NCBI RefSeq assembly: GCF_056746865.1
Contig: NZ_CM163382.1
Length of the DNA stretch: 64,000 bases
Strand: one strand, 5' to 3'
Made by a program: the position numbers. Within the stretch, counting starts at the first letter, position 1. Each line of letters starts with the position of its first letter. This document shows, one piece after another, positions 54,601-60,600 of this stretch.

Positions 54601-57600
54601 AGGGACGCACCATTACTACATCTCTGAAGCCGTCAGATGTTTGTGATCTGATTTGCGCATTCATGTACCCAGCAATGAGGACTGTCCACGGCGATAAGTG
54701 GAAACTTGCGACAACCGCTGAATTTGATATGTGGCTAAACAATGATGGCATGCTGACTGATTACGGAATAACCAAGTGGCAGATGCTGGTTAGCCATATC
54801 GCAAACGCTATAGACCACGTGGGGTACGGTGATGCGAAACATTGATCTTATCCGTCAGGTTATCAGTGCGTCTGAAAACAACTGGCCTCATGTGCTGGGC
54901 TGCCTGAACATAAATGTCCCTGACTCTCCGCGCCGTCATGCTCCCTGCCCTGCATGTGGGGGCAAAGATCGATTCCGGTTCGACGACAACGGGCGCGGTA
55001 GCTTCATCTGTAATCAGTGCGGCGCTGGTGATGGGCTGGATTTAATTAAACGCGTAAATAACTGCGACACAACAGAGGCGGCGCTGCTTGCCGCTGATGT
55101 TCTTGGTATTGATTACCGGACAACAGAAACACCAGAAGCCACCAGCCAGAAACGGGAACAACTGGAAACCGAGCGCCAGCGACGCGAACAGGAGCGCCTG
55201 AAAAGGGCAGAGAAGGATGAACAACAAAGACGGGATACGTTTTCCCGTCAGTTTGATGACATGCGCAGAAAGGCTGTAAACGGCAAATCTGATTATCTGG
55301 TTGCGAAAGGGGTAGGCGATTTTACATTCCCCGTGTTGCCCGATGGATCTCTGTTGCTGGCGCTGGTGGATAAATCCGGCGCAGTCACAGCAGCACAGAC
55401 TATTACCTCACATGGTGAAAAAAGACTCCTGACAGGTTCGGCAAAGCGGGGGGCATATCACGCCATAAACGCACAGAAACGACCTCACAGCATCATAATT
55501 GCTGAGGGGGTGGCTACCGCCCTGTCGTGCCATTTAATTCGCCCTGACGCAATGACAGTGGCAGCAATCGACGCTGGCAACCTGTTGCCAGTAGCGGAAG
55601 TCATGCGCAGAACATATCCACAGGCACAAATCATCATTGCCGCAGATAACGATCACCAGCAAGGAAACTCCGAAAGTGGAGGGATCAACACGGGGAAAGA
55701 TGCCGCAGAGAGGGCCGCTATTTCCGTAGCTGGCTGGGTGTCTCTGCCACCGACTGACTATAAAGCCGACTGGAACGACTATCACCAACAACACGGGCTG
55801 GCGGCAGCCACAGCAGCATTTAAAGATTCGATGTACCAGCCACGGGGGAAAGGGGCGCAGGTGAAAAATCACAAACAGTCAGTCGGGGCGCTGAATGAGA
55901 TCAGTTCTGGCGAGGTGTTAAGCGATGATGAAATTGCTGTCCTCGAAGAAATCAACCGGACGTTTACGCATGTCACCATCGGCGGGAAACACAAGGTGGT
56001 GTCGCTAAAGCCTTCTCAAACCGGCGGTGTATCGCACGTTTTCGAGGATTTATCACAATTTCAGCATTATTTTCATCATAAACCGAGAGTCGCCAGAAAG
56101 CTGGCGGGATCGGCGTGGCTGTCATGGAGTGGGAAGAACTACAAGCCAGGAGGCGTAGGATTTTATCCAGTACCAGACAAATGCCCTGACGATGTTTTTA
56201 ATCTGTATGAGGGGCTGGCACTGGAACCAATTGAAGGAGATTGCACGGTATACCTTAATCACCTGTTGCAGGTTGTCTGTGCCGGGAATGAAGAGGCATA
56301 CCAATATCTTATCCAGTGGATGGCGCACATTATCCAAAAGCCTGATGAAAAACCGTCCGTGGCAATCGTAATGAAATCTGTCCCGGGCACAGGGAAAGGC
56401 ACAACGGTTAAACCGCTGCTGCAAATACTGGGGCAGTACGCCGCCCACATTAACGGGGCGGGACATATTTCAGGGCGCTTCAATTCAATACTTGCTAACA
56501 AGCTACTGGTATTTGCTGACGAAGTGACGATCCACAAGCCGTCTGAAGCTGACAGACTTAAAGCGATTATTAGCGAACCGACGTTTAACCTTGAGCGCAA
56601 GGGAATTGATGCTGAACCAATGCCGAATTTTGCCCGGTTGATATTTGCCAGTAACAGCACACAGGTATTACAGGCAGGGATAAGAGAGCGCCGCTATCTC
56701 GTGCTTGAGCCATCTCCTGAAAAAGCACAGAGCCGGGAGTATTTTGATCGGCTGTACAGTTGGCTTAATGATGGCGGTGCCGCAAAGTTGCTTTGGCATC
56801 TTAAAGGGGTGGATCTATCAGGTTTTGACCCTCAACGAGCGCCACAGACCGATGCCTTACGTGAAGAAATCTTGCTGGGGCTGTCTGGCGTTGAATTGTT
56901 TCTTTATGGCGAGCTAATCAATGAACCTCCGTTTAATGGCGAAGTCCGTTTGTTTGCAAAGGATATGGTTAGTCGATTTGTAGCGTGGTCGCTTGAGCGT
57001 GGGGAAAAGCTTAAAGAACCAGCAGCCAGATCACTACTGGGTAAGTCACTTGCACAAATGGGACTGGTGAAGCATGGAAGACCAGACCGTGGGAATGGCG
57101 TGTTCTACGAACTACCAGAGGTCGGAGTTCTACAGGCTGCGTTTGCCCGTCTGATCGGTATGGGGGGTTATGATGTTTTTTAATATAGTCTTTTTACAAG
57201 AAGAACGTTTTTACCTGTACCACCTATACCATTTTGCTAATTCAGTATTAAAAACAGTGCGTTACAGTGGTACAGGTCAATATCTTACCTATACCAGACC
57301 TGTACCACCTATACCATTAACAAACGCATTTCTTCTGGTTGGCTGAGAGGGAACAACCAATGATGAGCACACCATTTTACAAAGTGCGCCAGTTAGCTTC
57401 TTCCTCTGGCTGGCAGCTACGGTTTGAGGGGCGTTCAGACTGGCTACCCATTGCGGCATGGGCGAATGTTGAAATGTGTATTGACGGCGATACCGTTGAA
57501 ATCATTATTCCCTGCGTGGCAAGTCGGGACGGCTGTATAGAGCCAACAGATATGGCAGCAGAAATCAGAGAGGTAAAACATGAACAATAACTATTGCATA

Positions 57601-60600
57601 CCGCAGGGAATGACCAGAACGGAGCGCGAAGAATTAAAAAGTTTCGCTACACAGTGCGGGAATGCTGGCGACATCCAAAGTCTGGAACGCACTTTAATTA
57701 TGATTGCGCACTGGATGCGCCAGGGGCAAAGGGTTTCATTTACTGAATATGCCAGCCAGTGGACAGAGGCACAGCGCGAACGGAGCGACGGTAATCACTC
57801 AACACCCGAAATGGCGAAGCAATGGCCTTTCAGTGGTAAACGCTGTATCAGTCCCGGTGGTTCAGATTATTACCCTGCTGGTGTGGGAGATGAGCCATGT
57901 TGTGACGAGACTGAAATCCGCCACGCAGTGACAGTAATTACCGCTGAATACCCACAATTTAACCTTGACGGACTGGCGCTCCACAACCGGAATGCGGACT
58001 GGGAAAACCCGCTTGATAACCCGTCATTTATCGTATCGGCGAAAAGCTGCCTGAGATGGATCAGAGACAACGGGATGAGTAATGCCCAGATTGAGAGCTT
58101 CCCGCAGGATAACCCCACATCTGACACGTTGAAGCATGAAGTGGAGCGATATAACCAGATAAACCACCAGCACAGTGATCACCCGCACTATATCCCCAAC
58201 GGAGCATTTATTGCGGCGATGGTGGCAAGCGGCTACAAGGTTAAACCAGCGGGAAGAATGAACGCATTTTTCAATATTTCAAAAAAGGGATTATGTGCTG
58301 CTATGGGTAAAAATTAAATAAATGGTACAGGTCTGTACAGGTGGGTAGAGGTCATTTTTACCCACCTGTACCACCTGTAGGCCGCGCCACACAAGGGTTT
58401 GTGGCATGGTGGTACAGGTGGTACAGCAAAAACAGCGATTTTCTTTATAAGGTATGTTTTGCTCATCTGGCAGACGGAGGTATTCGCTGCGGTTTGGCAC
58501 ATAGCCCAGAACAGGAAAGAGTTTTACGAGACTTTTGTAAAATCCAGTGTACAAGGGCGTGACGTTTTTGAAGGTGAGCACTACGAAATTTTCGTAGTTC
58601 AAAAAATAGCCTCTGAGATGTTGTTATGCCTGTTCAGCAAACCATCCGCATAGCTGATCGCGAATCAAATTACCAATGGAGCCAGAAGCAAGGGCAGAAC
58701 TGGAAAGCGCCTGCCATGAAGAGTAATGCGACACCATAAATATAGTTTTTAGAGTCCATAAAAAACCTGTCAAAACTTGACACACAGAACGATGCCACCA
58801 GCTACTGAGCGGTGGCATTTTCTTGTGCTATTCGTTTCACATTTTGCAATGAACATGATGAATATTGCGTTTTATGAAACTATAATAACTGTTGTTTTAT
58901 ACAGTTCTAAGGGGGCGTTATGGCTATTTCAGTAAAGCCGGTATTGATAAGTGAGAAGCAAATGGAAGCGATAAAGAAAATTCAGGAAGAGCAGCGTAAA
59001 AAATCAGGAATTGGAGTAGCGCCAACTCTACATGAAATTGCACGAGGGTTAATAGATAAGGCGCTGGCAGGCTGTATGTGAAAATGGATGGCATCGCATG
59101 GAACTAAAATTTATTGATAACCCTGTGCGATTACAGGCCTTTCTTAACGATCCTGGCAATACCGAAAATATTGTTGAGCCGGGGCACACGTACTACATCA
59201 AGCCTGATGCGGTATATCTCGGCATCTACGAAGGATTGGTGCTGGCTGGCGTTCATGAAGTGCGTAACTTCTGGCATAGCATTGTTGAATGCCATGCGGT
59301 GTACGACCCCGGATTCCGTGGTGAATATGCACTGCAAGGGCATCGATTATTCTGCAAATGGCTTCTCGAAAACTCACCATTCCTTAACAGCATTACCATG
59401 GTTCCTGACACCACCAAATACGGACGGGCAATTATCCGTTTGCTTGGCGCTACCCGTGTTGGTCACCTTGATGATGCTTATATCAGATGTGGTAAACCCG
59501 TCGGCGTAACGCTTTATCAGTTAACTCGGCAACAATATAAGGAATTCAGCGAATGTTAATTACCCATATAGCTCATAAACATCTCAATCGTGCCGTATAC
59601 GAAAAAGGCGGTGATGGTGGTGCCTCTAAAGCTCAGGCGAAGGCCCAGCAGCAGGCAATTGATTTGCAGCGCGAGCAGTGGAATACGGTGATGAATAATC
59701 TCAAGCCGTATGCAGAAGTCGGATTGCCTGCTTTACAACAACTACAAGGACTGATGACTCTGGAAGGGCAGAATAAAGCCGCGAATGATTTCTTTGGTTC
59801 TGGTTTATATAAAACACAGGCAGATCAGGCCCGTTATCAGAACCTTGTCTCAGCAGAAGCTACCGGGGGGCTTGGCTCAACAGCTACCAGTAACCAGTTA
59901 TCTTCCATTGCGCCCATGCTTTATAACAATTGGCTTAGTGGGCAAATGCAAAATTATGGAAACCTGCTAAATGTCGGGATGAATGCGGCATCAGGGCAGG
60001 CAACGGCAGGGCAAAACTACGCCAATAATACCGGACAACTCTTGCAGGGGCTTGGCGCTATTCGTGCAGGTCAGGCGCAGCAGCCATCCAGTCTTGCGCG
60101 TGGTATTGGTGGGGCAGCATCAGGCGCTTTAGCGGGTGCGCAACTTGGTTCCGTTGTTCCTGGAATAGGAACTGCGGCCGGCGCTATTGGTGGTGGGCTT
60201 ATTGGTCTTGTTGGGGGGCTTGGATTCTAATGGCGACATGGCAACTTGGCGGGCTGCCTAGCATGGCACCGCAAAATGATAATGCTCCTCGTTCTTCCGT
60301 TCCTCAGCCTGTGCAGTATCAGCAGCAGCCAAACGTAGGTTTAATGGCGCTACAGGGGCTAAGAGGCGTTGCTGAGATTAATCAGCAGGCGCAAATTTCC
60401 CAGCAGCTAAAAGAATATCAGGCACGGTTGGGTAGTGCGGTAGCTAATAATGATCGTGTTGGCGTGCAGAAGTTAATGGCCCAGTATCCCCAGTTTATGG
60501 CTGATTCTCAAAAACAGATGGGATTCATTGATGCTGAGCAAAATCGGCAGACCGCTGACGCTGCCATGAATCTGCGTCTTGCGTCACAAACTGGAGATCC

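What the first reader, a model, noticed from the sequence alone, without database searches (positions are those of the whole stretch)
57360..58317. Overlapping 76-aa and 245-aa unknown genes between the repeat clusters
The two ORFs overlap by 11 nt, so they are probably co-translated. The larger protein has a Cys-rich segment (CISPGGSDYYPAGVGDEPCCDETEIRH) and no motif I recognise. Their position, insulated by binding-site-like repeats inside a mobile element, makes them candidates for an accessory function such as exclusion, helper interference or a toxin-antitoxin pair.
Basis: inference. Interest (0 to 1): 0.5.

Follow-up and report, generated by a model that had tools for sequence, protein, structure and literature searches.

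The report
Unknown gene pair inside satellite origin
Two real but uncharacterised genes sit inside the replication origin of an E. coli phage satellite; they travel with its replication machinery rather than forming a toxin-antitoxin pair, and the larger fuses two widespread unnamed phage protein modules.

Summary
ORFs 57360-57590 (76 aa) and 57580-58317 (245 aa) overlap by 11 nt, have Shine-Dalgarno sequences and are under purifying selection. They lie in an EcCIMP1-like phage-inducible chromosomal island (PICI), directly after its P4-alpha-like primase-helicase. Two ~120-bp iteron arrays bracket them, and these arrays are imperfect inverted copies of each other. Comparison with EcCIMP1 shows that the helicase half of the primase, both arrays and the pair are exchanged as one 2.66-kb cassette. 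EcCIMP1 lacks the pair and is still mobilised, so the pair is not needed for induction or packaging. The 245-aa protein fuses two independent modules. Neither has a Pfam, NCBIfam or PADLOC model, and both occur widely as separate small proteins. The C-module (winged-helix-like, usually basic) recurs just downstream of replicases of at least four families in satellites, and inside DNA-replication gene clusters of phages. The "Cys-rich motif" is not conserved. The large gene often occurs without the small one, so a toxin-antitoxin pair is unlikely. Best reading (inferred): accessory proteins of the satellite replicon, biochemical activity unknown. Interest is moderate.

The parts
54829..57183 (+). 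Primase-helicase (784 aa): Zn-ribbon, Toprim and DUF5906 helicase domains. Residues 8-338 are homologous to phage P4 alpha.
   Evidence: Pfam PF08273, PF13362, PF19263. BLASTP against P4 alpha gives 33% identity, E=1e-40, over residues 8-338 only.
55854..58514 (.). Swappable replicon cassette: the helicase/C-terminal two-thirds of the primase, iteron unit A, the 76-aa gene, the 245-aa gene and iteron unit B.
   Evidence: Homology to EcCIMP1 runs 50382-55853 (94.6%) and 58515-64000 (98.9%). The segment between is replaced in EcCIMP1 by a TOPRIM-DUF927 C-terminus plus a short intergenic region. The cassette is intact in 118-139 of 5426 E. coli genomes.
57209..57316 (.). Iteron unit A: two direct, one inverted and three direct copies of ACCTRTACC(A) around an AT-rich centre (GC 30-37%). 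Probable origin with melting site.
   Evidence: The layout matches the published PICI origin rule of two iteron sets flanking an AT-rich region directly 3' of the replicase (PMC6092414).
57360..57590 (+). 76-aa acidic (pI 4.6) beta-rich protein of unknown family.
57580..57891 (+). N-module of the 245-aa protein (about residues 1-104). Helical, with signature M(T/S)Y.ERE.LK...IAHWMRQ...F.EYA..W...WP.SG.R.I..G.SDY.
   Evidence: Stand-alone homologues are 85-120 aa. Weak match to phrog_4935, function unknown.
57892..58317 (+). Linker plus C-module of the 245-aa protein (about residues 105-245). Winged-helix-like, with signature YP.L...G...C..WL...SYGLKH.VE...YI.NGAFIAA...G...N..FNIS.
58318..58432 (.). 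Iteron unit B: an imperfect inverted copy of unit A with the same iteron layout but a GC-rich centre. Analogous to P4 crr.
   Evidence: Unit A aligned to the reverse complement of unit B shows 75% column identity with iteron positions conserved.

Best explanation
The pair is part of the replication module of an EcCIMP1-like PICI, not cargo and not a toxin-antitoxin system. After helper-phage induction, the rightward AlpA-dependent operon is expected to transcribe the primase-helicase and read through iteron unit A into the two translationally coupled genes (inferred). The primase-helicase, not the 245-aa protein, is the probable iteron binder. It would occupy units A and B, as P4 alpha binds ori and crr, and open the AT-rich centre of unit A (inferred by analogy). 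The 245-aa protein is a fusion of two portable modules. Its C-module is winged-helix-like and, where it stands alone, usually basic. I propose that it binds nucleic acid or a generic replisome or host component rather than iterons, and that it assists or protects replication of the excised island. Possible activities are replisome recruitment or organisation, handling of replication or recombination intermediates, or shielding them from nucleases. The N-module is proposed to be a protein-interaction or regulatory domain. The 76-aa acidic beta-protein occurs only with alpha-type (DUF5906) replicases whose iterons share the GGTACAG core, although some alpha-type islands lack it, so it is more likely a lineage-specific modulator of that replicase or origin. 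Shown: gene reality, cassette co-inheritance, the conserved slot after replicases, the modular architecture and a confident fold model. Inferred: every biochemical activity.
Confidence: 0.42

Rival explanations
1. Phage-interference or exclusion function. The pair, or the 245-aa protein alone, targets DNA replication or recombination of the helper or a competitor phage. This would benefit the island and could contribute to the superinfection immunity reported for EcCIMP1-type islands.
For: In PICIs the genes directly after the origin are typically interference genes (PMC6092414). The proteins belong to fast-evolving, unannotated families typical of conflict genes. The C-module sits among phage DNA-metabolism genes, as small host- or rival-directed proteins often do.
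Against: EcCIMP1, for which superinfection immunity was shown, lacks the pair. No PADLOC hit. C-modules lie inside core replication clusters of bona fide phages and after replicases in both Gram-negative and Gram-positive satellites. That fits a housekeeping replicon role better than a helper-specific weapon. The pair is co-inherited with the helicase and iterons, not with the variable cargo end of the island.
Confidence: 0.25
2. Packaging-specificity factor. The 245-aa protein would act like a small terminase or Rpp, directing the P22-like helper's headful packaging machinery to the island.
For: It sits at the boundary between the replication genes and the virion-related genes (P22 gp14/gp7/gp20 homologues). 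EcCIMP1-type islands have no recognisable terS, and EcCIMP1, which lacks the pair, is transduced only at low frequency (PMC11773190). A winged-helix-like domain could recognise a pac site.
Against: No sequence or fold similarity to TerS or any packaging protein. EcCIMP1 is specifically mobilised without the pair. In phages the C-module lies between DNA polymerase, nuclease and helicase genes, not next to terminase genes. The AAA_25-type islands place the gene before SSB and ProQ.
Confidence: 0.1
3. Type II toxin-antitoxin (addiction) pair, with the small upstream protein as antitoxin and the 245-aa protein as toxin.
For: A small acidic upstream ORF overlaps a larger downstream ORF by 11 nt, and the pair is on a mobile element.
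Against: No toxin, antitoxin or defence-family hit. Conserved large-gene homologues, including a cluster with 116 member sequences in E. coli, occur with no small-ORF homologue. In Xenorhabdus the two genes are separated by 245 nt of iteron DNA. No promoter-like site lies upstream of the pair. The small protein shows no DNA-binding fold.
Confidence: 0.05

Closest known systems
EcCIMP1, an E. coli phage-inducible chromosomal island mobilised by the P22-like phage Kapi1 (Pick, Stadel & Raivio, ISME J 2025; PMC11773190)
   Same: The backbone is near-identical (94.6% and 98.9% identity on either side of the cassette). It carries AlpA, the Ant antirepressor, DUF4222, Ash, a run of small hypothetical genes, the N-terminal primase domain, DUF2824/P22-type ejection-protein genes and PerC.
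   Different: EcCIMP1 has a TOPRIM-DUF927 replicase with a short origin region and lacks both genes of the pair and both ACCTRTACC arrays. The window's island also has a different integrase, and no tRNA gene is present in the window.
Phage P4 replicon: alpha primase-helicase with ori and crr
   Same: The primase domain is homologous (33% identity, E=1e-40). The replicase gene is followed immediately by two ~120-bp units packed with short iterons in both orientations, as in P4 crr.
   Different: The helicase and C-terminal parts are not detectably similar to P4 alpha. The two units are inverted rather than direct and lie 1 kb apart with two genes between them, against 60 bp in P4. No Cnr (DUF5375) homologue was detected in the window, and the N-module is unrelated to Cnr.
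[quoted passage not shown] 2018, PMC6092414)
   Same: Unit A alone fits this rule, with 2 and 3 direct iterons flanking an AT-rich centre immediately after the replicase gene.
   Different: A second, inverted unit lies 1 kb downstream, and the two units bracket two conserved protein genes. The same layout occurs in a diverged island, L005.
Winged-helix domains of replication proteins (Orc/Cdc6, Cdt1, P4 alpha origin-binding domain 1ka8) and the RFX DNA-binding domain
   Same: These are the best structural matches of the AF2 model, and the helix-helix-hairpin topology of residues ~148-231 fits a winged helix.

Membership tests
Type II toxin-antitoxin system | Recognisable toxin and/or antitoxin domain | tested here: not met
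   No hit in Pfam, NCBIfam, PADLOC or PHROGs with known function. No antitoxin-like DNA-binding fold in the 76-aa model.
Type II toxin-antitoxin system | The two genes co-occur obligatorily as an adjacent pair | tested here: not met
   No small-ORF homologue in L003, L004 and L093-L102. In L002 the genes are separated by 245 nt.
Type II toxin-antitoxin system | Toxicity of one partner neutralised by the other | not testable with these tools
   Needs expression experiments.
Phage-inducible chromosomal island (Gram-negative PICI, EcCIMP1 type) | Integrase, AlpA regulator, unidirectional operon, pri-rep followed by an iteron origin, no full set of virion or lysis genes | tested here: met
   Integrase 46334-47677, AlpA 50189-50392, primase 54829-57183, iterons after it, all on the + strand. 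Only P22-type ejection-protein genes are present.
Phage-inducible chromosomal island (Gram-negative PICI, EcCIMP1 type) | Helper-dependent excision, replication and transfer | not testable with these tools
   Shown experimentally for EcCIMP1 with phage Kapi1 (PMC11773190). The window's island shares 95-99% identical regulatory and virion-related modules but has another replicon and integrase.
P4-type replicon | Alpha-type primase domain | tested here: met
   33% identity, E=1e-40 over residues 8-338.
P4-type replicon | P4-type helicase and origin-binding domain; Cnr regulator | tested here: not met
   No similarity beyond residue 338. The helicase is DUF5906. No DUF5375 in the window. N-module against Cnr gives hhalign probability 0.04.
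Iteron-binding replication initiator (Rep) | Protein sequence co-varies with the iteron sequence it binds | tested here: not met
   The 245-aa homologues are about 65% identical across islands whose iterons are unrelated (ACCTGTACCA against AAAGTGGGGAG). The iterons follow replicase type instead.
Winged-helix nucleic-acid-binding proteins | Winged-helix fold with a basic, polar recognition surface | tested here: inconclusive
Small terminase / Rpp-type packaging redirection | Homology or fold similarity to TerS or Rpp; requirement for packaging | tested here: not met
   No sequence or structure hit. EcCIMP1 is mobilised without the pair.
Known anti-phage defence systems (PADLOC-DB v2) | Match to a defence-system protein model | tested here: not met
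   No hit for either protein at E<=0.1.

The most novel reading that the evidence does not exclude
The pair defines an unrecognised accessory layer of phage-satellite replicons. Two portable protein modules have no Pfam, NCBIfam or PADLOC model. The C-module and N-module together gave 837 hits (E<=0.001) among cluster representatives at 50% identity, spanning Gram-negative and Gram-positive satellites and many uncultured phages. These modules plug in directly after unrelated replicases. In Enterobacterales they are fused and embedded inside a bipartite, inverted-repeat origin. Replicase binding to the two iteron arrays could then both fire the origin and gate expression of the genes looped out between them. 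The C-module would be a new, widespread replication or recombination factor of mobile elements, for example a replisome adaptor or a protector of replication intermediates.
Probability: 0.25. Interest if true: 0.6.

Novelty: new variant of a known kind. Interest (0 to 1): 0.4.

Why it matters
PICIs and P4-like satellites are major vehicles of virulence and defence genes in Enterobacterales, yet their replication modules are described as just 'pri-rep plus ori'. Here a quarter of one abundant E. coli island family (about 139 of about 488 genomes) uses a replicon whose origin is split into two inverted iteron arrays that enclose two conserved genes. The modules of the larger gene recur next to replicases in satellites and inside replication gene clusters of many phages, without any database annotation. 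If these modules prove to be replication or recombination factors, or replication-directed weapons, hundreds of 'hypothetical' phage and satellite proteins would gain an annotation. The result would also refine how satellite replicons are recognised and typed. If they prove dispensable, this remains an ordinary pair of hypothetical genes whose genomic logic is now explained.

Tried and rejected
(1) Family searches for both proteins in Pfam, NCBIfam, PADLOC and PHROGs gave nothing, or only function-unknown PHROGs. The stand-alone modules behave the same way.
(2) Profile searches of PDB sequences with the family alignment and the C-module alignment gave only chance hits.
(4) Fusion partners of longer homologues showed no informative domain.
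(5) N-module against P4 Cnr, and C-module against the P4 alpha origin-binding domain and the island's own primase C-terminus, showed no relationship. One search failed because of a frame error.
(6) Cultured phages hold no homologue of the fused protein, and only one (JB1P3) holds a phage-type C-module. Plasmids hold only two IS-truncated island remnants.
(7) Literature searches on accession numbers and on the satellite/primase context found no paper treating these genes. The EcCIMP1 paper leaves the region unannotated, and its island lacks them.
(8) The Cys-rich segment as a metal-binding motif is rejected: it is not conserved.
(9) The 245-aa protein as iteron-binding initiator is rejected, because iterons co-vary with the replicase instead.
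(10) N- and C-modules as neighbouring split genes in phages is rejected: no N-module is found in the 80 C-module loci.
(11) The first attempt at search for related loci with the broad C-module alignment failed because the alignment was too divergent.
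Full report
OBSERVATION. Each is preceded by a GAGG-type Shine-Dalgarno sequence at 6-7 nt (read). RefSeq annotates the same CDS as 'hypothetical protein' in ETEC H10407 and strain MDR_56. Both are genuine genes. Intact homologues occur in E. coli, Raoultella, Pantoea, Enterobacter and Xenorhabdus. dN/dS is about 0.28 for the small gene and about 0.13 for the large one, with synonymous sites near saturation. The flanking repeats are also real. ACCTRTACC occurs 10 times in 64 kb against 0.44 expected, and 9 of these lie in two clusters at 57213-57315 and 58324-58419. The 'Cys-rich segment' is not a motif. Only C89 is invariant, and the stretch is the conserved tail of the N-terminal module plus a variable linker.

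WHAT THE ELEMENT IS. The window is E. coli chromosome. The 1.6 kb around the pair matches 488 of 5,426 complete genomes. The pair lies in an integrase-bounded island with this gene order:
- P4-type integrase (46334-47677)
- an IS3-family insertion (47858-49131)
- AlpA (50189-50392)
- Ant antirepressor and an Ash-family protein
- several small ORFs
- a 784-aa Zn-ribbon/Toprim/DUF5906 primase-helicase (54829-57183)
- the pair
- homologues of the phage P22 ejection proteins gp14 (DUF2824), gp7 and gp20, and an SLT-domain protein that runs off the end of the window.

This is the architecture of EcCIMP1, a PICI shown experimentally to be induced and transduced by the P22-like phage Kapi1 (PMC11773190). 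Direct comparison with the EcCIMP1 locus in E. coli MP1 confirms it. Window 50382-55853 is 94.6% identical to EcCIMP1, and 58515-64000 is 98.9% identical.

THE KEY NATURAL EXPERIMENT. Between those two blocks the islands differ completely. EcCIMP1 has a TOPRIM-DUF927 replicase, a short intergenic region and no pair. The window has the DUF5906 helicase half of its primase, iteron unit A, the 76-aa gene, the 245-aa gene and iteron unit B (window 55854-58514). The left breakpoint corresponds to primase residue ~341. That is exactly where similarity to the primase domain of phage P4 alpha ends (33% identity, E=1e-40 over residues 8-338). The right breakpoint lies about 90 bp beyond unit B. So the pair is exchanged as one unit with the helicase/origin-recognition part of the replicase and its iterons. 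It belongs to the specificity cassette of the replicon. This cassette is intact at >=99% identity in about 120 E. coli genomes (139 with any match), roughly a quarter of the genomes that carry the backbone. Because EcCIMP1 is induced, excised and transduced without the pair, the pair is not required for induction or packaging by a Kapi1-type helper.

THE ORIGIN. Unit A (57209-57316) holds two direct, one inverted and three direct iterons around an AT-rich centre (GC 30-37%). By itself it fits the published rule for PICI origins: two iteron sets flanking an AT-rich region immediately 3' of the replicase (PMC6092414). Unit B (58318-58432) is an imperfect inverted copy of unit A. Column identity is 75% and the iteron layout is conserved, but the centre is GC-rich. 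P4 has a comparable feature: crr, two 120-bp units full of alpha-binding iterons, immediately downstream of alpha. Here the two units are inverted and 1 kb apart, with the pair between them. The same layout is found in a diverged island (L005, 63% protein identity). In Xenorhabdus the iterons lie between the two genes, and in AAA_25-type islands they lie only upstream of the large gene. The bracketing is therefore lineage-specific, not universal.

GENOMIC ASSOCIATION. Every satellite-like locus examined places these modules directly after the replicase, whatever the replicase family.
- DUF5906 alpha-type primase: window, L002, L005, L090-092.
- AAA_25 helicase: L003/4 and L093-097, where the gene is followed by SSB, ProQ and PerC.
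- Alpha-type primase followed by an N-only gene: L098, L100, L101.
- DUF927 replicase followed by a C-only gene: L006.
- pri/primase of the 14-kb Gram-positive element Lacticaseibacillus 'phage' JB1P3, followed by a C-only gene and then terS.

In 74 uncultured-phage loci with a C-module gene, a PD-(D/E)XK nuclease lies within two genes in 52 (directly adjacent, on either side, in 46). An SNF2 helicase lies 2-6 genes downstream in about 50, and a family A DNA polymerase 1-5 genes upstream in 39. One locus places the gene between SbcD-like and SbcC-like genes. These loci are dominated by one lineage. In 16 unrelated loci the neighbours include PriCT_2, VapE-like, AAA_25, DUF5906, Prim-Pol and DUF3854 replicases, DNA methylases, integrases and large terminases. 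The modules are almost absent from plasmids, where only two IS-truncated island remnants were found.

WHAT IT IS NOT. It is not the iteron-binding initiator. Iteron sequence follows the replicase type (ACCTGTACCA/GGTACAG with DUF5906, AAAGTGGGGAG with AAA_25), while the 245-aa protein stays about 65% identical across both. This also suggests that its partner is something common to different replicons, such as a DNA structure or a host or replisome component, rather than a particular helicase. A toxin-antitoxin pair is unlikely. There are no family hits, the large gene is conserved without the small one in many islands, the genes are separated in Xenorhabdus, and no promoter-like site lies upstream. 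A packaging factor is also unlikely, given the absence of TerS or Rpp similarity, the mobilisation of EcCIMP1 without it, and its position in phage replication clusters.

MOST LIKELY MECHANISM (inferred). After helper induction, the AlpA-dependent rightward operon would express the primase-helicase and read through unit A into the coupled pair. No terminator or promoter was predicted between them. The primase-helicase would bind units A and B and open the AT-rich centre of unit A, by analogy with P4 alpha at ori and crr. The 245-aa protein would act as an accessory of island replication. Its C-module would bind nucleic acid or a generic replisome or host factor, and its N-module would provide protein contacts or regulation. 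The 76-aa protein would modulate this particular replicase or origin. I put about 0.4 on 'replicon accessory', about 0.25 on 'replication-directed phage interference', about 0.1 on packaging and about 0.05 on toxin-antitoxin. The remainder is unknown. No biochemical activity has been shown.

NOVELTY AND VERDICT. The island type, its helper and the general PICI origin design are known. The pair has not been studied: no paper was found, and the EcCIMP1 study could not address it because that island lacks it. What is new is modest but concrete. First, the pair belongs to a swappable replicon cassette. Second, the origin is bipartite, with inverted iteron arrays bracketing two genes. Third, two unannotated, widely distributed modules are tied to phage and satellite replication modules. 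I rate this a new variant of a known kind, with interest about 0.4.

Noticed in passing
window 59098-64000: The island encodes homologues of the P22 ejection (E) proteins: gp14 (DUF2824, 59098-59559), gp7 (59553-60230), gp20 (60230-61549) and an SLT-domain protein open to the window end (61546-). These genes are unusual for a satellite. The EcCIMP1 authors suggest a packaging role. Supplying or competing with the ejection proteins of the P22-like helper, or superinfection exclusion, seems equally possible.
   Followed up: partly
window 46334-50382 compared with L103 and L107: The island is a mosaic of modules. Besides the replicon cassette, the integrase end differs from EcCIMP1 and MDR_56, because homology starts only at 50382. 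ARAGORN finds no tRNA gene in the window, whereas those islands sit in tRNA-Thr next to proA. This copy therefore probably uses another integrase and attachment site.
   Followed up: partly
window 47858-49131: An IS3-family insertion sequence (HTH_Tnp_1 ORF plus rve ORF) lies between the integrase and alpA. It could uncouple the integrase from the AlpA-controlled operon.
   Followed up: no
window 55853 (primase residue ~341): The recombination breakpoint between the two replicon types falls exactly at the junction between the P4-alpha-like primase domain and the helicase domain. A shared primase domain is combined with either a DUF5906 or a DUF927 helicase, which is a clear case of domain-level shuffling of satellite replicases.
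   Followed up: yes
window 58920-59081: A conserved 53-aa ORF (RefSeq 'hypothetical', WP_001018522/WP_001018524) is preceded by a very AT-rich stretch (GC 27% at 58830-58889). It heads the ejection-protein gene block in all islands and has no family hit. The AT-rich stretch may hold a separate promoter for the virion-related genes.
   Followed up: no
window 57170-57346: The 58-aa ORF that overlaps the primase stop and runs through iteron unit A is almost certainly spurious. It consists of translated iterons and is not annotated in RefSeq.
   Followed up: partly
L104 (PV668529.1, Lacticaseibacillus phage JB1P3): This 14-kb 'phage' has an integrase, pri/primase genes, terS, terL, portal and capsid genes, but no tail or lysis genes in the annotated stretch. 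It therefore looks like a capsid-forming PICI rather than a phage. It carries a C-module gene in the same post-replicase slot.
   Followed up: no
L003/L004 and L093-L097: A sister island family uses an AAA_25 (468-470 aa) replicase with AAAGTGGGGAG iterons. The replicase is followed by the N+C gene, SSB, a ProQ/FinO-domain protein and PerC. A satellite-encoded ProQ-like RNA chaperone next to the replication genes may deserve separate study.
   Followed up: no
L012, L074 and about 50 related IMG/VR loci: In one abundant uncultured phage lineage the C-module gene and a PD-(D/E)XK nuclease gene are always adjacent but in either order. This suggests a functional link between the two products.
   Followed up: partly
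window 13847-13855: There is a single exact iteron match (ACCTGTACC, minus strand) far outside the island. It is most likely chance, given that 0.44 matches are expected per window.
   Followed up: no
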